DNA of 11,708 nucleotides, from the UHGV virus genome UHGV-0100572, one strand, 5' to 3'. A model generated the notes under the pieces. It had not been told where the DNA came from. It was given only the letters and a program-made list of their open reading frames with translations, and ran no database searches. Source of the stretch: a virus. A program made the translations under genes and the position numbers. Below are positions 261 to 8,603 of the stretch, piece after piece (the stretch's first letter is position 1; every line of letters starts with the position of its first letter).

Positions 261-2822
261 TTATATTTTCTTAATATTATTAATGCACCAACGGAGATAT
301 GCGCACTCTAATACAAGCGCCTCGTCATATCGTATCCCATAGCGATTACCAGCCTTATTTTTAAGTCGTAATTCTCCTGTTTCATATATCTTCTCTATTT
401 GTTCTCCAAATTCATTCACCTCAATTTTTGAGGAAAAAACAGGCTCATAGCTATCATCCCATTCATCGTAACAAAGAATTCCATATGCAAATGGGTCTAT
501 TCCTTCTGATTCAAAGGCTTCTTTTACTCTCTGAGCAATAACTCCGAAATGTATCCTTGCTTTGTCCCCTTTCTCTTTTACAGCATCGGTAAACTTATAC
601 TGCATAAAATTGACTTTACCCCATGCCTTTAAAATCTCCTCAGGAATCTCCTCTTTTTCTATTTTGGCGCGTTCATCAGATGTGTTAATGCTTCCTGTCG
701 AAGCATAAACTTGATTCCAACGTTTCTCAGGTATTCCACAGTTCCCGCCAGAATCATCTGTTGGATAAATATGTTTTCCTGATACTGCATTGCCATCGCT
801 TGTAACCATGAATTTTGTGTTTCCGGATATGCTCTGAACCTGAAAACTAGCATCAGTTTGCGCAAGAATAGATCCTGCAGGCGCTCTCTTAATTCTCGCA
901 TAATTAGGATTGTCAATTGAACCAAGAAGAATTTGTGATTCCTGTTGTGTTGATTCAGATAGTATTCGTAAATCTCCAAATGGCAATTTGGTATTGCTTC
1001 GAGAATCTGCAGAGTTAAACAACATTGTGTCGCCGTAGCGAAGTGTTGTGTATGTCAGAGCAAATGGAGCATGAGACTCGATAATCTCCATTAGCCTGTG
1101 ATTTGTAGTGGCACACAAACCAAAAAATGTATTACTTGTCTGATTAGATGTTATTGGCGTGCCATCTCTCATCCTTACCTTAAACGGGTTTTCTATCATG
1201 CACCCCAAAAATGTATCCCGTGCAGAACGGTCAATTCTCACGCAAAAAGGAGCATCGCTCTGGAATCTGGTTCCTATATAACGATGTCCGTGTATAGCTT
1301 TGCTTACATTTCCTCCCAACCCGTCAATATTAAAAGCTCCGCCTACATCCCAATCAGTTAATGGGTCAGGAGAAGTTTTCATATCAACAAGTCTGCGCTT
1401 GGTATGATGATTAGCCCCAAATATTTGACTATTTATGATAACAAAATCAGAAAATCCACCGGCTCCACGATCATCTGGAATAAGTTTATTTTCTACAGGA
1501 TCATAATAATTTTCATATCCTTCCGGAGCATATGAGTCATGCCCAGGAGCAGGAGAAGCACCAAAGACATTTACCCCCCATAAACCACCAGATGTAAACA
1601 CACGATCAAGAATGCAACCATCACTACCATCACCCCAAATACCTCGTGGATATGAATTACCAGTTCGATAGCTTTTAAATCTACCTGCACCAGAAGGTTG
1701 AGTAACATCGAACCAAATATTTGCTTTTCGATGGTATCCAATAACTGCAATATCAATAAGTTGAGTATTACAACGGCATCCATTAAAAATACCGACATCC
1801 CAATCAGCACCCAAGTTGTCAATGCTGTCTGTGTATTCACCATCAGGGCCACTTTCTGGCGGGTAAACTTTTGTTCTCACTGCAAAGTGCTCTAGCTGAA
1901 CGCCTTCTGCTTGAATATTAATATTTACCGAAATTGCCTCATCCTGAGCATCACCAGAACCTGAGCGATACTTCCGTCTGGTACGTATCCTTTTTGTGCC
2001 AGTACCAACAAACATTAATGTTGAGCAATCAACCCAATTAAATACTGGCCCGATATAATGAGGAACGATACTCCCATTTTCACTATATTGATTAAGTGCC
2101 TGATATCCATATCCCCTCCCGGAACCAATAATTCTTTGACCATGAGTTAGTAGTTCCAGTTCAAGATCACAAATAAATACTCCCTCCGTCAGATAAATAT
2201 GCTTTCCTGTATCAAGAGCAGCTTGTATTGCGAGGCCGTCAATAGATTGTTCCAGTGAAGTAGCAAATGGATAAACCACCCTGGCTAATGATAGAGAAGA
2301 AAATTTCTCTGATAGTTTATGTAATGTCCCGTCACCTATAGCACCGAAATCTCTGATACTTACAAAATCTAGGTTTTTTGAATGTTGACTTCGTTGTATT
2401 GCTCCAGCAAGTGGTTGCTTAATAAATACATTAGAGTCATCAACTAATTGACCAGAGTTTTCATGTTGAAGGAGATGTCGCAGTTGATCGGGGTCATACT
2501 TCAGCACATTCTGGAAATAGAACTGCTGTACGCCATACGCATCGTACACAGCCATAGAATGACCTTGCACAGTTACGAACTTGGCAATCTGTCCGTTATA
2601 TACCGGATATCCAGCAGCGTTAATGATGATTGGTTGCGAAACAGGAACGTGAGAACCGTCTTCGTTCTCCACATAAACCTGAATCTGGTTTTCAGGATTT
2701 ACAGGGTCAGTGTCAATTTTGCCGATATAAATTTTGCCATTGGCTACGGCTTTAAAAGAACGTGCCATAGTGAAGAGTTGCGAAGGCATCGATACGATCA
2801 CATTGGCTGTAATGTCTGTCAT
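261..2822 (-). CDS. Tailspike protein: P22 gp9-like N-terminal head-binding domain, beta-helix depolymerase-like receptor-binding domain, C-terminal peptidase-S74-type intramolecular chaperone domain
   Basis: 853-aa ORF with ATG at 2822-2820 and GGAG 8 nt upstream. Residues 1-113 (MTDITANV...KYDPDQ) closely match the P22 tailspike head-binding domain as I recall it. A DFGAIGDG motif typical of pectate-lyase-fold beta-helix depolymerases lies near residue 160. The C-terminus has a TSDERAK motif (S715/D716) like the auto-cleavage site of endosialidase-type chaperone domains. Confidence 0.9.
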
Positions 2823-2922: not shown

Positions 2923-3825
2923 TCAGTAGTTATGTACTGAAGGAGGTAATTCTTTATTCTTAAGTCTCATCCATGCGGAAAGATTCGTTGGTCCGTCTGG
3001 CTCATTAATATCAACATCTCGTGTATGGTTGATTAAAACATCTCTCGCCATTCCGATAACATACGAGAACTCATGACCGTAGTCGTAGCATCTGCCGGAA
3101 TAGTTCGATTGAATTTGTTTTAATGCCGGATACAGTTCGCGGAATAATGCCTGTGAGCGGTTGGCATAATCCCATAACCATACAAGGCTGTTTGCTTCTT
3201 TTGCAGAAAGCTCGTTTGCTTTCTTCTCTTGCTTGCCGATGAACTCACCTTCAAGCACTACCCTGTGGATGTACTCTACTGCTTGCGGTATCTGAGATGC
3301 ATCAAGCTCTTCAATACTTTCCACATTGAAACGCTGATGAATCATTGCATAAGCTTCTGGGTACATTAGATGCTTTTTGCTGACCAGCATATTTACAGCA
3401 TCACGAAGCGGAGTCCTGTCATCAACAGATGTTTTCTTACGTGCATTTTCTGCCTTTCCCTTCGTCCAGTAGTCATGCAGCACAGTAAAGCATTCTTCCT
3501 GGTACTGAATCAGTTTATCACGGATGTCAGCACGAACTTTCTCAGGGTTGATGCTGAACAGCCATCCATTTAACTTCTTCAAAGGAAGGCAGAGTAGCTT
3601 ACGAAGCTTACCATCAGCGGCAACCATGTTCATATGAACACAGTTGAATTTGCTAATCTGCTTCATGAGTTTTGTTTGCTGCGTTGACCAGCTCATTCCG
3701 AGGTTTTCAACGATTGGCTTCATCGCAACATATGCAACTCCGGCAGCCATGGCGGTGATAATTTGCTGACCGTTGAATGGCACGTAAGAGGTGTTCACTG
3801 CTTCTAAAATTGCTATACTATTCAT
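2923..3825 (-). CDS. ant: Antirepressor Ant (P22 immI antirepressor family)
   Basis: 300 aa from ATG 3825-3823 ([22 protein letters not shown]...), with GGAG 10 nt upstream. The N-terminus matches P22 Ant as I recall it. The ORF-track start at 3855 is a TTG adding 10 residues and is less likely. Gene order arc-ant-tailspike is as in P22. Confidence 0.85.
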
Positions 3826-3896
3826 GTTGGTTTTTCTCCAAGGATTTACCGACAACCGAAGCCCTAACTGTTACCGCAGTTGGGGCTTCAACTTTT
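3826..3896 (+). ncRNA. sar: Candidate sar-like antisense RNA covering the ant ribosome-binding site
   Basis: Extended -10-like TGcTATACT at 3811-3819 on the plus strand, inside the first ant codons. About 60-70 nt downstream is a hairpin (3858-3868 pairs with 3879-3889, one G-U pair) followed by aacuuuu. The predicted transcript is antisense to the ant GGAG and start codon. P22 encodes a 68-69 nt sar RNA at the equivalent place. Confidence 0.4.
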
Positions 3897-4112
3897 CACT
3901 TCTTTAAAGTGCCTACCTTCTACAGTTGCTCTGAGATAAAAATTCTTATCTTTACCGTTTAGTGCTTCCCAAGCATCAACAATGCACTTATTACAGATGT
4001 GGACTTCTCGATAACCAATAGCTTTCCTGTCAATATTAGTGAACATAACAGCTTCTTTATCTGTCAATGTGGATGCATGACAGAAGTCGCAATCTATATA
4101 AGATACCTTCAT
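3888..4112 (-). CDS. Small hypothetical protein with two CxxC pairs (zinc-ribbon-like), inserted between arc and ant
   Basis: 74-aa ORF. Its ATG (4112-4110) overlaps the arc stop as ATGA. A GAGGGG Shine-Dalgarno lies about 8 nt upstream. CDFC at residues 8-11 and CNKC at 40-43. I do not recall a gene at this position in P22. Confidence 0.5.
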   Translation of the reverse strand: MKVSYIDCDFCHASTLTDKEAVMFTNIDRKAIGYREVHICNKCIVDAWEALNGKDKNFYLRATVEGRHFKEVKS

Positions 4113-4267
4113 ACCGTTATCCCCTCTCTCTTCAGGCTGTCCATCACTCGCTTGTAAATCTCAGAGTTAACAGATCGCCCGTTCTCTTCCGCCACCTTAC
4201 GCACCAAATCCAATACTTCTTTAGGCCACCGCAAATTGAACTGCGGCATTTTGCTCATTCCTTTCAT
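4109..4267 (-). CDS. arc: Arc repressor (ribbon-helix-helix)
   Basis: ATG at 4267-4265 gives MKGMSKMPQFNLRWPKEVLDLVRKVAEENGRSVNSEIYKRVMDSLKREGITV (52 aa), near-identical to P22 Arc as recalled. GAGGTG Shine-Dalgarno upstream. The longer 73-aa ORF in the track begins at an ATG inside the Arc operator. Confidence 0.9.
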   Translation of the reverse strand: MKGMSKMPQFNLRWPKEVLDLVRKVAEENGRSVNSEIYKRVMDSLKREGITV

Positions 4268-4283
4268 ATTCACCTCACAATAT

Positions 4284-4300
4284 AGGTCCACCGTGGACCT
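4284..4300. promoter_or_regulatory. Mnt operator (Omnt)
   Basis: 17-bp palindrome aggtccaccgtggacct, matching the P22 Mnt operator as I recall it (AGGTCCACGGTGGACCT, central base inverted). It covers the predicted Pant transcription start. Confidence 0.85.
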
Positions 4301-4301
4301 A

Positions 4302-4330
4302 TTGAGAATATAGTAGAGTGCTTCTATCAT
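4302..4330 (+). promoter_or_regulatory. Candidate Pmnt promoter, divergent from and overlapping Pant
   Basis: Plus strand ttgaga (4302-4307), 17-nt spacer, tatcat (4325-4330), 27 nt upstream of the mnt ATG. Hexamers are weaker than Pant; placement by analogy with P22. Confidence 0.35.
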
Positions 4331-4335
4331 GTCAA
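4307..4335 (-). promoter_or_regulatory. Pant promoter driving arc, the small CxxC ORF and ant
   Basis: Minus strand reads TTGACA (4335-4330), a 17-nt spacer, then TATATT (4312-4307). That is a consensus -35 with near-consensus -10 at ideal spacing. Confidence 0.7.
4310..4330. promoter_or_regulatory. Arc operator (Oarc)
   Basis: atagtagagtgcttctatcat is the reverse complement of the 21-bp P22 Arc operator ATGATAGAAGCACTCTACTAT as recalled. It sits between the -35 and -10 of Pant. Confidence 0.85.
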
Positions 4336-4357
4336 TACACTAACTTGGGGTGATGGC

Positions 4358-4612
4358 ATGGCTAGAGACGATCCGCACTTTAACTTCCGTATGCCTTTGG
4401 AAGTAAGAGAAAAATTGAAATTAAGAGCAGAGGCTAACGGAAGGTCAATGAACTCTGAGTTATTACAAATCGTTCAGGATGCTCTCTCAAAGCCATCATC
4501 AATTGTAGGCTATCGAGACGAAGCTGAGCGAGTCGCGGATGAGCAATCTGACGTTGTTAAGAAGATGGTCTTTGAAACGCTGAAAAATATTTATAGCAAA
4601 AGTAAGTTATAG
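4358..4612 (+). CDS. mnt: Mnt repressor (maintenance of lysogeny, represses Pant)
   Basis: 84 aa, MARDDPHFNFRMPLEVREKLKLRAEANGRSMNSELLQIVQDALSK..., near-identical to P22 Mnt as recalled. Divergent from arc with the two operators between. Confidence 0.9.
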   Translation: MARDDPHFNFRMPLEVREKLKLRAEANGRSMNSELLQIVQDALSKPSSIVGYRDEAERVADEQSDVVKKMVFETLKNIYSKSKL

Positions 4613-4661
4613 GCTTATGACGTACAGTTAACCATATCGATATTGGCTCGCGTGATGACAA

Positions 4662-5381
4662 ATGAAAAAAAGCAATGGACTCACATTAAAACTTGACGGA
4701 ACCACCCCTGGCCAGCTGTCAATGGCTAAGTTGGTCAAGTATATGTCTGCTCTCGTAGATCTATACGGTTCTGCAGATTCTGTTCACTTCGACTGTGTAA
4801 GTGAAGGATCGGCTGACTTAAATGCATGGGTCGATAATGATATTTGTTATAACGCTGTCATAGCAAGGGCCTCTCTCTCAGCCAAAGAGAAATCACCCGC
4901 GTATCAAAAAATTGTTAATTTACTGGAACATGATGGTTTTTCAGCGAAACTACTCGGACGAAACCACTCAACCATTATCGCATTCCCGCGAGTAAAAAAG
5001 GAGCCAATCCCTTTACTCATAACAAAAACGTCAGAAGTTCAAGGAAGGCTATACAGTGTTGGCGGAAAAGACAACTCAATACCTGTGCGTATTGAGGGAG
5101 CCAACGGTGAAACATTCAAGTGCGAGGCAACCCCTGATTTGGCGGCAGCTCTTGGGTCCCATCTATTCAAATATATTAGGGTTAAAGGAGATGGGTGCTG
5201 GGAAAAAAAGAACAACAAATGGGAGCTAAAGAAACTAAAAATAACTTCATTTGTATTGCTCAAAAAATCATCACTCAAGGATGCTATTAATGCTATCAAG
5301 CAAGTTCCTGGAGATCAGTGGTCCGAGGAACGCGATGTTGATTCAATCCTTAGGACTCTGAGGAAGATAAATTGCGAGTAA
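4662..5381 (+). CDS. Hypothetical protein, 239 aa; upstream partner of the PIN-domain gene
   Basis: ATG-initiated ORF 49 bp after mnt. No recognisable motif (no Walker A, no hydrophobic segments). Its last 10 nt overlap the next ORF. AT-rich relative to the flanking late genes, by eye. Confidence 0.65.
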   Translation: MKKSNGLTLKLDGTTPGQLSMAKLVKYMSALVDLYGSADSVHFDCVSEGSADLNAWVDNDICYNAVIARASLSAKEKSPAYQKIVNLLEHDGFSAKLLGRNHSTIIAFPRVKKEPIPLLITKTSEVQGRLYSVGGKDNSIPVRIEGANGETFKCEATPDLAAALGSHLFKYIRVKGDGCWEKKNNKWELKKLKITSFVLLKKSSLKDAINAIKQVPGDQWSEERDVDSILRTLRKINCE

Positions 5382-5920
5382 TTTTAGATACCAATATTCT
5401 GGTATACCTACTATCAGATATAGAACACGATTATAGATTATCTGACCCTATACTTGGTTCTGAGATTCCAGATGCCAAAAGAAGAGCAGAAGCTCTTGTT
5501 GATCGAATAGATAACAAGAACGGGACAATCATCGTTCCAACTCCTGTATTGGCGGAGTTTTTAGTTGGAATCCATAAAGATTACCAACAAGAAAAACTGA
5601 ATGTTATCAAATCGTTATCGTGCTTCGAGACTGTATCATTTGATGAGTTGGCTGCTATTGAATGCGCATCGATACCAACATTAAAAGAATTAAGGAAAAT
5701 TAGCACAGAAGGTACAGCAAATAAAATTAAGTTTGACAGACAAATAATAGCAATTGCAAGAGCAATTAATGCTGACGAGGTATGGACTCATGATAAGGGA
5801 GTGTTTGAGCGTTGCAAAAGTCTCAATATTCCTGTGTTCACATTGTCATCAATAGAACCAATTCCGGTTCAAAGTCTCATGGAGTTCTTACACGATTCAG
5901 ACGATCAGAGATTACACTAA
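5372..5920 (+). CDS. PIN-domain protein (VapC-like putative ribonuclease), 182 aa
   Basis: N-terminus MRVILDTNILVYLL with the hallmark acidic residue at position 6. Further candidate acidic residues in VLAEFL and NADEVWTHDKG. TTG start at 5372 preceded by GAGGAAG with a 5-nt spacer. There is no in-frame ATG that would preserve the PIN N-terminus. Confidence 0.7.
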   Translation: MRVILDTNILVYLLSDIEHDYRLSDPILGSEIPDAKRRAEALVDRIDNKNGTIIVPTPVLAEFLVGIHKDYQQEKLNVIKSLSCFETVSFDELAAIECASIPTLKELRKISTEGTANKIKFDRQIIAIARAINADEVWTHDKGVFERCKSLNIPVFTLSSIEPIPVQSLMEFLHDSDDQRLH

Positions 5921-5935
5921 AATATAATTTTTATG

Positions 5936-5964
5936 CATCCGTGATAATTACATCCGTCACGGAT
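5936..5964. promoter_or_regulatory. Inverted-repeat and palindrome cluster upstream of the third cassette gene; candidate operator
   Basis: atccgtga (5937-5944) and tcacggat (5957-5964) are inverted repeats. atccgtcacggat (5952-5964) is a 13-bp palindrome. The motif CATCCGT occurs at 5936 and 5951, and again at 6478 downstream of the gene. Confidence 0.3.
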
Positions 5965-5984
5965 ACATAAAGCTATAGCCAAAA

Positions 5985-6470
5985 GTGGACAAACCTTTAT
6001 CTCACTCCAAACCATCTGGTATCCTGCGTAAAACTAAGGAGGTTGGTGTGTTTGGTATATTAACGAGAAGCAAGATAAAAAAATTAAGGGCAGAACTCGC
6101 CGAAACACAAAAACTGGCTTCACATTTTTACAAAATGAAATACGACGCTGAAGAGCGTGCATTTGTTGAGTTATGCGATTTATCTATTCGTATGGGAGTA
6201 GAGCCAGATGTAGCGGCAAAAACCCAACAAGGCATTGATATACTTGCAGATGTTGTTTTAAACAGGCAATATGCGTTTTATCTAAACGAGAAGGCCATTC
6301 AGATTTACTCTCAAATCTTCCTCCTAGAAAAAAGAAGAGGAACTCACGATCGAGAAGAGTGGTTAAATGAAGTTGTTAAAAAATCTGGCTGGGAAGTTGT
6401 TTCATCAGAGCTACCTCTTATTTGTGCTGATTTAATCGAAGAGGCAAAAGAGCGCCTATCCGATGGCTAA
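5985..6470 (+). CDS. Hypothetical protein, 140-161 aa depending on start
   Basis: ORF track starts at GTG 5985. An in-frame GTG at 6048 has a strong AAGGAGG Shine-Dalgarno 5 nt upstream and is the more likely start (6048-6470). No recognisable motif and no transmembrane segment. Stop at 6468-6470, 25 bp from the convergent gp16 stop. Confidence 0.6.
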   Translation: MDKPLSHSKPSGILRKTKEVGVFGILTRSKIKKLRAELAETQKLASHFYKMKYDAEERAFVELCDLSIRMGVEPDVAAKTQQGIDILADVVLNRQYAFYLNEKAIQIYSQIFLLEKRRGTHDREEWLNEVVKKSGWEVVSSELPLICADLIEEAKERLSDG

Positions 6471-6494
6471 ACGAATCCATCCGTGGATTACTAA

Positions 6495-8603
6495 TTACTC
6501 CCGCTCCATTCCGCTTAGCGATGCCACAATCCCACCCCTCGCTAAGCGCTGAAACTCTTCGTTTCCGACGGTATCACGTATCGCTTTTACAGCAGCTTTA
6601 TTTGCCATAAATCTGCGTTCAGCCGCCGCTAATGCACCATCACTTGCCCCAACCTTAACTGCCTTTGTTGCCTCTTGAACAGCCTTTTCAATAGCGTAAC
6701 GACCACTGCGGGATGCAGCTAACTTTTCTATCGTCCCTTTAGCTATAGATCCAGAAACAGCCCCCACAACACCGCCAACAATCCCTCCACCAGTGGTACC
6801 AACAATAGCCCCTGATGTTGAATTGCCTATTGCATTGAGAACTGTCATGACAGCTTTTGGCAGTCCTTGCTCAAGAGAGTTAATTGCCGGTATAGAGCGC
6901 CCCGTATGCTCTACATATCGCAGTGGTCTGGTTGCTGCTCTGGCAAGGTCGCTGTATGCCCTAGCAATCTTACCCATTTCTGGCGAGTGCTTGCTAATGG
7001 CAGTAATATTCTGCGGCGTAAGGATCGACGCTATATGGAATACGCCAGCAGACTCTGATTTACCGCCACGCACCCCTTGCGATACCGCATCTTGTAATAT
7101 TGATGCAATTGCTGGAGATCGCTCAGACTCTGGCAGTGCGCCAATAATCTGATGAAACTTTCCTGTCCCACTTTTTGATGAATTTTGCAAGGCTTTAATA
7201 CCATCAGTGACTAACTGATCAGTTGCAAGGTTTCTAAACGCTGCTTCAGCCTGTTCTTGTGCTGTAAATCTTGCTTTTGACAGATCATTAGCTTTTTGCC
7301 AGTCATCAAGAAAACCGCCATTTTGAGCCATTATGCGCATATCTTCCGTTGCTGCATCACGAAGCTCCGCCATGCGCCTTGCCGTATTTGCCTCACCAGA
7401 CCTTATATACTTCTGCTCAGCGTCAGCAAGTTTACTTCGCCATGCCTTCATGGCATCAAACGTGATTCCTTTTTTACCAGTTTTAGCATAAGCCGATGCA
7501 AATTGTTTCATCTCAGGAGTTAGCGGCATACCAGCCAAAATATCACCCTGAATTGTAGCGTTCAGGTTTGACATTCTGGCCTTTGCGTCAGGCATCGTGG
7601 AGCGTACGCTATCCCATGCTGCCTTTTCTGAGTTCTTCATTTTATCAATACTTGCTAAAACCCTTTGTTTTATGGCTGCACTTTTTTCTGATGCAGATCC
7701 AGCCTCAGCACCAAGTTCATCAAGTGCTGAGTGGAATTTCGACTGTATTTCACTAAAAGCCCTAGTATGTGCATCCTGAACAATTCCTGGTTCGGATGCC
7801 AATATCCCTTCGGCTTGTGCAATTCCACGACTTCCAGATCGCATTCCTGGTGTTAATGCGTTTATATCAATTCCAGCAGACTCAGCCGCTTTTGCTACAT
7901 CTTCGGACACATTAGCGGCCTGACTGGCAATTGACTGACGCCCAGCACCTGACTTTGCCATCCTGGAAACATCATTAGCAGAATTCAGTGCTGCACCACC
8001 AAGAGCCTGTGAAACCCTTGGCGCAATAACGCGCCCGACACCTGAAAGAACGCCTTGAGCACCAATATTGATACCACCGTTAATGGCAGCATTTTGTGCA
8101 AAGTCGCCCTCCTGATTTGCAGCATCAGCAAGAGAACCTGCAATCATGTTTCCTGCGGAACCGATATCTCCAACGAGCTTTGCTGGCGCTCCAGCAGCTT
8201 TTGCCGCTGTGCCAATTGGCAGGAGATACCCACCAATTGTTTCACCGGCTTGCGCGTAAGGGTCTGTCGGTCGATCGACGGGGCGATAAACATCATCCAA
8301 AACCTTGGGGCCACCAAGCCCCTGGCTGATTGCATTAATCAGACTTGCGCCACCCTGCAATACGTCAAATGGTATGTTTACCAGACCACGACCAGCCTGT
8401 TCTGCAATTTGCCCTGCACTTTGACCACCAGTGAGCCAGTCAGTAGCTTTTCCTACCAGAGATTGTTCGTCTGGCTGCGATTGGTTTTGAGTGGATTGAT
8501 CACCAGAAGACAGCATCTGAGCAATGCGACGTGCTCCCTCAGTATCGCCAGCAGCATCAGCATTCCTTAACGCCGTCATCAACTGTTCGCGACTATAGGC
8601 CAT
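6495..8603 (-). CDS. 16: Ejection (DNA transfer) protein, P22 gp16 family
   Basis: 702 aa, [29 protein letters not shown]..., Gly/Ala-rich as in P22 gp16. ATG 8603-8601 overlaps the upstream stop as TAATG. Last gene of the gp7-gp20-gp16 order. Confidence 0.85.

What the first reader, a model, noticed from the sequence alone, without database searches (positions are those of the whole stretch)
4613..6494. AT-rich three-gene cassette in the mnt-to-gp16 moron slot: candidate new defence or exclusion module
Between mnt and the convergent ejection-protein gene, where P22 carries sieA as I recall, are three plus-strand genes: a 239-aa protein with no motif I can recognise, an overlapping PIN-domain protein, and a 140-161-aa unknown protein. 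None looks like a membrane protein such as SieA. The region is visibly more AT-rich than the flanking late genes, which suggests horizontal acquisition. Cargo genes at this immunity locus of a temperate phage are prime candidates for anti-phage defence expressed from the prophage.
Basis: partly seen in the sequence, partly recalled or inferred. Interest (0 to 1): 0.85.

Follow-up and report, generated by a model that had tools for sequence, protein, structure and literature searches.

The report
Prophage cargo: PIN nuclease gene pair
The cargo slot next to the mnt repressor of an E. coli P22-like prophage holds a conserved two-gene unit, a nucleic-acid-binding-type protein and a PIN nuclease, which is probably an untested anti-phage or toxin-antitoxin system, plus an unrelated orphan gene.

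Summary
Between mnt (4358-4612) and the convergent gp16 gene (6495-8603) lie three plus-strand genes: A (239 aa), an overlapping PIN gene B (182 aa), and C (140 aa from GTG 6048). None is membrane-like. P22 carries orf59a and sieA in this slot.

It is not one three-gene cassette. A and B form a fixed pair. In 72 of 73 loci B directly follows A, and their divergence tracks closely (r=0.97). C is an E. coli-only orphan that also occurs without A and B. It sits in a plug-in site where three unrelated ORFs share the same upstream sequence and start codon.

B keeps the PIN acidic residues D6, E62, D122 and D141. A has no Pfam family. Its model shows a ferredoxin/RRM-like domain, an OB fold and a tail with a near-invariant arginine.

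In prophages the pair sits just downstream, on the same strand, of lysogeny repressors of three unrelated types. In chromosomes it lies beside type I R-M, Mrr and Nhi-like genes. DefensePredictor lists this exact PIN protein as an untested predicted defence gene.

Most likely A and B are a lysogen-expressed, toxin-antitoxin-like defence module with a new kind of partner. The AT-richness contrasts only with the gp16 side. No phenotype data exist.

The parts
4302..4330 (+). Promoter-like site upstream of mnt (TTGAGA-17-TATCAT, 10 of 12), at the position of P22 Pmnt. It is the likely driver of mnt and, by read-through, of genes A and B.
   Evidence: Consensus scan. P22 annotates Pmnt and Pant at the equivalent place. 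Function here is inferred.
4358..4612 (+). mnt, an 84-aa Arc/Mnt-type ribbon-helix-helix repressor. It is the upstream neighbour of the module on the same strand.
   Evidence: Pfam Arc 5.7e-27 and Repressor_Mnt 4.8e-13. About 85% DNA identity to P22 mnt.
4613..4661 (+). 49-nt mnt-to-A spacer with no terminator-like or promoter-like site detected.
   Evidence: Scan of 4000-6700 found nothing here. Sequence.
4662..5381 (+). Gene A, 239 aa, the partner of the PIN nuclease. It has an N-terminal ferredoxin/RRM-like domain (about residues 1-110), an OB fold (about 118-199) and a low-confidence C-terminal tail with conserved W220 and R234. It belongs to no Pfam family.
5372..5920 (+). Gene B, 182 aa, a divergent VapC-like PIN-domain nuclease and the presumed effector. 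Its TTG start overlaps the end of A by 10 nt.
   Evidence: Pfam PIN 4.1e-10. D6, E62, D122 and D141 are invariant in 27 homologues down to 30% identity. It directly follows A in 72 of 73 loci. It is identical to WP_001263856.1, which DefensePredictor predicts as a defence gene.
5921..6047 (+). Conserved spacer and expression site for the third gene. It contains a promoter-like site (5896-5923), an 8-bp inverted repeat (5937-5944 / 5957-5964) and the Shine-Dalgarno sequence AAGGAGG (6036-6042).
   Evidence: Near-identical (3 mismatches in about 150 nt) through GTG 6048-6050 in prophages with three different third ORFs. Promoter-like site. Sequence.
6048..6470 (+). Gene C, 140 aa, soluble and probably helical, found only in E. 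coli. It is an independent cargo gene and not part of the A+B unit.
   Evidence: Only 3 protein clusters among 5.8 billion. No family hits. Present in 30 of 5426 genomes against 19 with A+B+C. Found with other cargo and no A+B in L070 and L071.

Best explanation
The interval is the variable cargo slot of the immI region of an E. coli P22-like prophage. It contains two separate things.

(1) Genes A and B are a translationally coupled two-gene module. It is probably transcribed with mnt in the lysogen. B is a PIN (VapC-like) metal-dependent nuclease with an intact acidic active site. A is a soluble protein built from two domain types typical of nucleic-acid binders (ferredoxin/RRM-like and OB fold), followed by a flexible tail that carries a near-invariant arginine.

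The most likely working model is a toxin-antitoxin-like abortive-infection or exclusion system. A binds B and keeps it inactive, possibly by placing its tail in the PIN active site as VapB and FitA antitoxins do. Through its OB and RRM-like domains A would detect a nucleic-acid signature of an infecting phage. B would then be released or directed to cut RNA, or possibly phage nucleic acid, which stops the superinfecting phage.

(2) Gene C is an unrelated orphan cargo gene in a plug-in expression site. Its function is unknown.

Shown here: gene structures, domain folds, the catalytic residues, strict pairing and co-divergence of A and B, placement behind lysogeny repressors and beside defence genes, and the independence of C.

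Inferred: co-transcription with mnt, A-B complex formation, inhibition by the tail, the trigger, the substrate, and the defence phenotype itself.
For: Pairing:
- B directly follows A in 60 of 60 loci from the first sets and 12 of 13 species-representative genomes.
- The junction is a 10-nt overlap in 40 loci and a 1-3 nt gap in 15.
- Pairwise identities of A and B correlate at r=0.97, with 0 of 999 Mantel permutations reaching that value.
- Distant pairs at 24-32% identity are still A-like plus PIN (hhalign probability 99.7-99.9).
- In the only broken locus (L079) A is kept and the PIN is truncated. A PIN without A was never seen.

Effector:
- Pfam PIN scores above its gathering cutoff.
- D6, E62, D122 and D141 are invariant.

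Partner:
- Ferredoxin/RRM-like N-terminal domain.
- W180, W187 and R234 are 97-100% conserved over 143 representatives with a median 29% identity to the window protein.

Expression niche:
- Of 30 distinct upstream neighbours on the same strand, 15 carry Peptidase_S24, 16 carry HTH_3 and 2 are Arc/Mnt. By my count that is 21 repressor-type proteins.
- No terminator-like site lies between mnt and A.
- P22 keeps its exclusion gene sieA in the same slot (PMC10883804).

Defence-island association:
- The pair lies beside type I hsdM/hsdS (L078, L081), a PLD/DrmC-like nuclease (L078), an Nhi/AbiO-like helicase (L077) and an Mrr type IV restriction enzyme (L009).

Independent prediction:
- DefensePredictor Table S10 lists WP_001263856.1 as a 'Predicted novel defense gene' with mean log-odds 6.81. 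The cutoff is 4.
Against: - There are no experimental data on phage protection, toxicity or A-B binding.
- PADLOC has no model matching A, B or C.
- Some pairs sit in ordinary chromosomal places: inside the dcw cluster between ftsI and murE (L063/64), and between ggt and an MCP gene (L082). This fits any selfish toxin-antitoxin module as well as a defence system.
- A lacks the DNA-binding domain typical of type II antitoxins.
- In the validated two-gene PIN system DS-5, the partner is required for defence and is not an antitoxin. The inhibitory role proposed for A could therefore be wrong.
- The OB and RRM-like folds could serve protein-protein contacts rather than nucleic-acid binding.
- DefensePredictor hits validated at roughly 45% overall.
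Confidence: 0.55

Rival explanations
1. A+B are a plain toxin-antitoxin addiction module. They would stabilise the prophage or its locus, through post-segregational killing or by preventing loss of the cargo region, with no role against other phages. A would be an unusual antitoxin and B the VapC-like toxin.
For: - Two-gene architecture with the partner gene first and overlapping reading frames.
- NCBI annotates homologues as VapC family toxins.
- The pair is scattered across prophages, an IS-flanked site and housekeeping clusters, as toxin-antitoxin genes typically are.
- The single decayed locus keeps A and loses the PIN, as expected if the PIN alone is toxic.
Against: - A has none of the antitoxin DNA-binding domains.
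- Recurrent placement behind lysogeny repressors and next to restriction and other defence genes is more specific than random toxin-antitoxin scatter.
- Many toxin-antitoxin systems are themselves anti-phage, so this rival differs in biological role more than in mechanism.
Confidence: 0.2
2. A+B serve the phage's own life cycle. They would form an RNA-binding protein plus RNase that processes phage or host transcripts, for example immI or late antisense RNAs, to tune the lysis-lysogeny decision or induction.
For: - The pair lies within the immI regulatory region, next to mnt, arc, sar RNA and ant.
- It is linked to repressors in many prophages.
- The partner has RNA-binding-type folds.
Against: - The pair is absent from most P22-like prophages and from all 50,697 deposited phage records at DNA level.
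- It is freely replaced by unrelated cargo.
- It also occurs outside prophages, next to restriction systems.
- A core regulatory role tied to one phage type is therefore unlikely.
Confidence: 0.08
3. All three genes A, B and C form one three-component system.
For: - The genes are adjacent on the same strand in the window and in 19 complete E. coli genomes.
Against: - C is found in 30 genomes, some without A+B and beside P63C or ClpP-like cargo.
- A+B occur with a different 109-aa gene, or with only a small unannotated membrane-like ORF.
- C has only 3 clusters, all from E. coli, while the A family has 1579.
- The sequence upstream of C is a shared plug-in site for three unrelated ORFs.
Confidence: 0.04
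4. A+B, or C, act as counter-defence. The prophage would use them to disarm host immunity, for example with A as an SSB-like decoy, rather than to attack other phages.
For: - The OB fold resembles SSB and RPA.
- Phage cargo slots also carry anti-defence genes (general knowledge).
- C is a small orphan protein, like many anti-defence proteins.
Against: - A conserved, catalytically intact nuclease paired with A is not typical of anti-defence proteins.
- Non-phage copies sit inside defence islands of bacterial chromosomes.
- Placement behind the lysogeny repressor implies expression in the lysogen, not early in infection.
Confidence: 0.06

Closest known systems
VapBC type II toxin-antitoxin systems (PIN toxin VapC with antitoxin VapB or FitA)
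   Same: - The PIN domain has the four conserved acidic residues.
- The partner gene lies upstream and overlaps the nuclease gene.
- The partner has a flexible C-terminal tail with a conserved arginine, comparable to the tail that VapB and FitA place in the PIN active site. This last comparison is from my own knowledge and was not tested here.
   Different: - The partner is 239 aa with ferredoxin/RRM-like and OB domains. VapB is a 70-100 aa protein with an AbrB, RHH, Phd or HTH DNA-binding domain.
- B is longer than typical VapC (182 aa) and scores far below the NCBIfam VapC cutoffs (27 bits against 140).
DS-5 of DefensePredictor (PMC13092281): a validated two-gene E. coli defence system with a PIN nuclease
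   Same: - It is a two-gene unit of an uncharacterised partner plus a PIN nuclease.
- In DS-5 the PIN catalytic residues are required for defence and the partner is also required.
   Different: - The proteins differ: DS-5 is WP_021513008.1/WP_021513009.1, while the window encodes WP_000749484.1/WP_001263856.1.
- The DS-5 partner has DUF5830 and an AcrIF4-like domain, whereas A has no Pfam hit.
- DS-5 spans 1648 bp against 1259 bp here.
HEC-03 (Payne et al. 2024 preprint): ABC ATPase plus PIN-domain protein
   Same: A VapC-like PIN effector is coupled to a non-VapB partner in an anti-phage system.
   Different: The HEC-03 partner is an ABC ATPase. A has no ATPase domain.
P22 SieA and lambda RexAB (exclusion genes expressed in the lysogen and linked to repressors)
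   Same: - The genomic niche is the same. sieA occupies the same mnt-to-gene-16 slot in P22.
- Relatives of A+B sit directly downstream of CI-type repressors, where lambda carries rexAB. The lambda arrangement is from my own knowledge.
   Different: [quoted passage not shown]
- A, B and C have no membrane segments, and the effector here is a nuclease.
OB-fold single-stranded nucleic-acid binders (SSB, RPA32, Stn1, PriB, the MCM N-terminal domain, the class IIb aaRS anticodon-binding domain)
   Different: - There is no sequence-level relationship.
- No solved structure shares the whole two-domain architecture (TM-score on the query at most 0.28).

Membership tests
PIN domain nucleases (Pfam PF01850) | Sequence match to the PIN profile above the curated cutoff | tested here: met
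   B scores 40.8 bits against a cutoff of 23.6, E=4.1e-10.
PIN domain nucleases (Pfam PF01850) | Four conserved acidic active-site residues | tested here: met
   D6, E62, D122 and D141 are invariant in 27 homologues at 30-75% identity.
VapBC type II toxin-antitoxin | The toxin reaches the curated VapC family model cutoffs | tested here: not met
   NCBIfam scores: VapC (Leptospira) 27.1 bits against 140; TIGR00028 19.9 against 73.6; TA_toxin_VapC 14.8 against 80.
VapBC type II toxin-antitoxin | A small upstream antitoxin with an AbrB, RHH, Phd or HTH DNA-binding domain | tested here: not met
   A is 239 aa with no Pfam or NCBIfam hit. Its model shows ferredoxin-like and OB domains.
VapBC type II toxin-antitoxin | The toxin is toxic alone and is neutralised by direct binding of the antitoxin | not testable with these tools
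   Needs expression and co-purification experiments, or a multimer structure prediction.
Known anti-phage defence systems (PADLOC-DB v2.0.0) | Match to any model of a known or candidate defence protein | tested here: not met
   No families matched A, B or C at E<=1. DefensePredictor Table S10 also records no homology of the PIN to a known defence protein.
DS-5 (DefensePredictor) | Partner protein with DUF5830 and an AcrIF4-like domain; proteins WP_021513008.1/WP_021513009.1 | tested here: not met
   A has no Pfam hit. The accessions and the size of the unit differ.
SieA-type superinfection exclusion | An inner-membrane protein encoded in the mnt-to-gene-16 slot | tested here: not met
   The slot is the same. 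However, A, B and C have no hydrophobic segment (maximum KD19 of 1.19).
Anti-phage defence system (functional class) | Genomic association with defence genes or with prophage loci expressed in the lysogen | tested here: met
   21 of 30 distinct upstream neighbours are lysogeny repressors on the same strand. Neighbours include type I R-M, Mrr, PLD/DrmC-like and Nhi/AbiO-like genes.
Anti-phage defence system (functional class) | Reduces phage plating or burst when expressed | not testable with these tools
   No experiment was possible. No paper held in the library reports a test of WP_000749484.1 or WP_001263856.1. Brenes & Laub 2025 could not be read.
OB-fold nucleic-acid-binding proteins | Five-stranded beta-barrel OB topology similar to SSB and RPA | tested here: met
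   [not shown]
OB-fold nucleic-acid-binding proteins | Actual binding of single-stranded DNA or RNA | not testable with these tools
   Needs gel-shift or pull-down assays.

The most novel reading that the evidence does not exclude
A+B may define a widespread and so far unrecognised two-gene immune system. In it, a new family of RRM-like plus OB-fold proteins would sense phage nucleic acid and license a PIN nuclease. That family has at least 1579 clusters at 50% identity and no Pfam model. The system would occupy the position equivalent to rexAB behind the repressor in many lambdoid and P22-like prophages of Enterobacterales and Pseudomonas, and would sit in defence islands of marine Gammaproteobacteria and beyond. 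The conserved polar residues of A's N-terminal domain (Y27, H42, S50, D91) might even form a ligand-binding or catalytic site of their own.
Probability: 0.4. Interest if true: 0.7.

Novelty: new variant of a known kind. Interest (0 to 1): 0.6.

Why it matters
If A+B protect against phages, they add a defence family with a new sensor or partner architecture (ferredoxin/RRM-like plus OB fold) to the small set of PIN-based systems. They would also show that the position directly behind the lysogeny repressor is a general landing site for such systems across unrelated repressor types.

The module is present in clinically important E. coli ST131 lineages. That could affect phage-therapy host range and prophage competition.

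The strict pairing, small size and clear catalytic residues make it easy to test. The plug-in site for the third gene also shows how prophages can swap cargo precisely at a start codon.

Tried and rejected
- **AlphaFold database search.** Foldseek against afdb50 was not available on the machine, so no full-length structural relatives with annotation could be sought there.
- **Solved structures by sequence.** Searches with the A profile, with B and with the B profile gave nothing meaningful.
- **Defence and family libraries.** PADLOC and NCBIfam gave nothing for A and C and only weak sub-threshold VapC hits for B. PHROGs matched A and B only to families of unknown function.
- **Deposited phage genomes.** Only the mnt/arc part matches. 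A+B DNA has no match among the phage records even in distant mode.
- **The neighbouring YafO module.** I tested whether the 199-aa protein upstream of a YafO toxin in the same slot of strain N56 is related to A. It is not (hhalign probability 0.4%).
- **Non-coding RNA.** Rfam on the whole window found only sar RNA and nothing inside the cassette.
- **Prior validation in the literature.** No held paper mentions the three RefSeq accessions. DS-5 and HEC-03 are different systems. The SNIPE paper was not informative.
- **Brenes & Laub 2025.** This paper (Cell Host Microbe 33:1004) is not held. I could not check whether this pair is among its validated prophage systems.
- **Terminator after gene C.** I considered the AATCCA/TGGATT hairpin after gene C as a terminator. 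I rejected it because it is weak and has no T-run.
Full report
**What the window is.** The window is the right end of an E. coli P22-like prophage. It reads as follows:
- integrase 3' fragment, 12-170
- tailspike, 261-2822, minus strand (Head_binding + Peptidase_S74)
- ant, 2923-3855, minus strand
- a 74-aa ORF, 3888-4112, minus strand
- arc, 4109-4330, minus strand
- mnt, 4358-4612, plus strand (Arc + Repressor_Mnt)
- three plus-strand ORFs
- the convergent ejection-protein genes gp16 (6495-8603), gp20 and gp7, then gp14

Rfam finds sar RNA at 3826-3893, which confirms the immI locus. The same DNA at 99.9% identity lies in complete E. coli chromosomes, including an O25b:H4-ST131 strain.

**Check of the observation.**
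- A, 4662-5381, 239 aa.
- B, 5372-5920, 182 aa. It overlaps A by 10 nt and matches Pfam PIN at E=4e-10, above the curated cutoff.
- C, 5985/6048-6470. The true start of C is GTG 6048, five bases after AAGGAGG, as RefSeq annotates.

None has a hydrophobic segment. P22 carries orf59a, t_mnt, PsieA and sieA in this interval. Only 22 of 66 P22-like phages have sieA (PMC10883804).

The AT-richness claim is half right. The interval is 39.6% GC against 48.6% for gp16. But mnt (40.4%), the tailspike gene (40.2%) and the whole left flank (41.5%) are equally AT-rich.

**The slot is variable.** E. coli P22-like prophages carry different cargo between mnt and gp16:
- a Rap1a-family protein plus a 104-aa protein (L066)
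- a minus-strand 139-aa protein plus a 122-aa protein (L067, L068)
- a 199-aa protein overlapping a YafO toxin, plus a 107-aa protein (L069)
- P63C-domain and ClpP-like cargo (L070, L071)
- the A+B pair

**The cassette splits in two.**
- The full three-gene block is in 19 of 5426 complete genomes. 41 records match at 99% identity or more, and at least 11 of them carry mnt+A+B but diverge where gene C begins.
- In strain KE40 a different 109-aa gene follows A+B. In PEC011 only an unannotated 62-aa membrane-like ORF follows.
- The three arrangements are near-identical through the GTG start codon at 6048-6050 (3 mismatches in about 150 nt) and unrelated immediately after it.
- Gene C is in 30 genomes, some without A+B.
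- C has only three clusters among 5.8 billion proteins, all from E. coli.

C is therefore an independent orphan cargo gene in a plug-in expression site.

**A and B are a fixed unit.**
- In 60 of 60 loci from E. coli genomes, contigs found through homologous proteins and IMG/VR viral contigs, a PIN homologue directly follows the A homologue.
- The same holds in 12 of 13 species-representative genomes.
- In the single exception, a Marinobacter MAG (L079), A is kept and the PIN is cut after about 28 codons at an island breakpoint.
- The junction is a 10-nt overlap in 40 loci and a 1-3 nt gap in 15. Pairwise identities of A and B correlate at r=0.97, with 0 of 999 Mantel permutations reaching that value.
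- PIN homologues at 30-38% identity are also preceded by A-like proteins, with hhalign probability 99.7-99.9. These come from Marinobacterium, Providencia, a Binatia MAG and unassigned metagenome contigs.
- A profile search of 1.84 billion representative proteins finds 1579 clusters at E<=1e-3 and 825 at E<=1e-10. Nearly all are 230-260 aa. Pfam has no model for them.

**What the proteins are.**

B keeps D6, E62, D122 and D141 invariant across 27 homologues. This is the canonical PIN acidic site. B is a divergent VapC-like protein. Its NCBIfam VapC scores are far below cutoff, and it has no relative by sequence in the PDB.

The AF2 model of A (mean pLDDT 85) has three parts:
- A low-confidence helical tail.

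No solved structure shares the whole architecture (TM-score on the query at most 0.28). Across 143 representatives with a median 29% identity to the window protein, the most conserved positions are Y27, G36, H42, F43, G49, S50, D91, F108, G128, G134, G135, G176, W180, W187 (100%), W220 (83%) and R234 (97%). A near-invariant arginine in a flexible C-terminal tail recalls the arginine that VapB and FitA antitoxins insert into the PIN active site. That comparison is from my own knowledge and was not tested here.

**Genomic niche.** I collected the nearest same-strand gene upstream of A in each locus and scanned the 30 distinct proteins against Pfam. Fifteen carry Peptidase_S24, 16 carry HTH_3 and two are Arc/Mnt. 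By my count 21 are lysogeny-repressor types of three unrelated architectures.

Examples of prophages with the pair behind the repressor:
- Pseudomonas lambdoid prophages
- a Providencia prophage
- Rac-like prophages of Leclercia
- Pantoea, Pseudomonas and Halomonas genomes

In the window the gap to mnt is 49 nt, with no terminator-like site.

Outside prophages the pair lies beside:
- type I hsdS/hsdM, in Marinobacter manganoxydans and a Saccharospirillum MAG
- a PLD/DrmC-like nuclease
- an Nhi/AbiO-like Schlafen-type helicase, in a variable island between dinG and glyS
- an Mrr type IV restriction enzyme

Some copies are in plain chromosomal sites: the dcw cluster, next to IS1595, and between ggt and an MCP gene.

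**Literature.**
- DefensePredictor (PMC13092281) lists WP_001263856.1, the exact PIN protein of this window, among 'uncharacterized clusters' as a 'Predicted novel defense gene'. Its mean log-odds is 6.81 and it has no homology to a known defence protein.
- The paper's strict cutoff is 4. Its precision at a log-odds cutoff of 0 was 45%.
- The protein was not found in the paper's table of tested candidates.
- Their validated DS-5 is a different two-gene PIN system. Its partner, with DUF5830 and an AcrIF4-like domain, is required for defence and is not an antitoxin.
- HEC-03 pairs a PIN with an ABC ATPase.
- No held paper mentions the accessions.
- Brenes & Laub 2025 could not be read. Prior validation there cannot be excluded.

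**Interpretation.** The best-supported reading is that A+B form a toxin-antitoxin-like anti-phage module expressed in the lysogen. B is the nuclease effector. A is a nucleic-acid-binding-type partner that restrains the nuclease, targets it, or both. Evidence shown here covers the anatomy, conservation, pairing and genomic context. Co-transcription with mnt, complex formation, the trigger, the substrate and the phenotype are all inferred.

The main rival is a pure addiction toxin-antitoxin module. It shares the mechanism and differs only in biological role. A role in the phage's own regulation, a three-gene system and a counter-defence role are each less consistent with the distribution.

**Verdict.** It applies to a two-gene unit, not three. 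The PIN effector is a known kind. The partner family and its link to repressors are new. An independent machine-learning study has already flagged the PIN gene. I rate it a new variant of a known kind, with interest 0.6.

Noticed in passing
window 6036-6050, compared with L003 and L002: Three prophages are near-identical (3 mismatches in about 150 nt) through the spacer, the AAGGAGG Shine-Dalgarno sequence and the GTG start codon, then encode three unrelated ORFs (140 aa, 109 aa, and a 62-aa membrane-like ORF). The site works as a plug-in expression site, with the exchange junction exactly at the start codon.
   Followed up: partly
window 5937-5964: An 8-bp inverted repeat, ATCCGTGA / TCACGGAT, with a 12-nt loop lies in the conserved spacer after the PIN stop codon. 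A direct repeat CATCCGT overlaps it. It could be an RNA hairpin or a protein-binding site. No T-run follows it.
   Followed up: no
window 3826-3893 (+): sar antisense RNA (Rfam RF00262, 95.5 bits, E=6e-20). It overlaps the start of ant and the end of the 74-aa ORF.
   Followed up: yes
window 3888-4112 (-): A 74-aa ORF lies between arc and ant and overlaps the arc stop codon. It has paired cysteine motifs and a weak ClpX zinc-finger hit (E=0.0015, below cutoff). RefSeq annotates it as hypothetical in E. coli P22-like prophages. No gene is annotated between arc and ant in P22.
   Followed up: no
window 261-2822 (-): The tailspike combines the P22 head-binding domain with a C-terminal Peptidase_S74 intramolecular chaperone domain, as in endosialidase-type spikes.
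   Followed up: no
L072 and L075 (Pantoea latae contig NZ_MWUE01000022.1); also L025 and L041: Two diverged copies of the A+PIN pair lie about 11 kb apart on one contig. One follows a tail-tip J gene and the other follows an S24 repressor.
   Followed up: partly
L079:5001-5808 (Marinobacter MAG): This is the only broken module seen. A is intact, but the PIN gene ends after about 28 codons, where similarity to the L077 island stops. An HTH + Peptidase_M78 gene follows.
   Followed up: yes
L063 and L064, 3251-4528: A distant A+PIN pair sits inside the cell-division (dcw) cluster, between an ftsI-like PBP gene and murE, in metagenome contigs. This is an odd place for a mobile module.
   Followed up: partly
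L069:3811-4814 (E. coli N56, same mnt-gp16 slot): A different overlapping pair occupies the slot: a 199-aa unknown protein followed by a YafO-family toxin, then a 107-aa coiled-coil-like protein. The layout is the same as A+B+C but the proteins are unrelated (hhalign probability 0.4% for the 199-aa protein against A).
   Followed up: partly
L001:10852-12021 (E. coli Ecol_AZ146): In this otherwise near-identical prophage an ISEc52 element interrupts the gp20 ejection-protein gene. The gene is intact in the window, so that copy of the prophage is probably defective.
   Followed up: no
[not shown]
   Followed up: no
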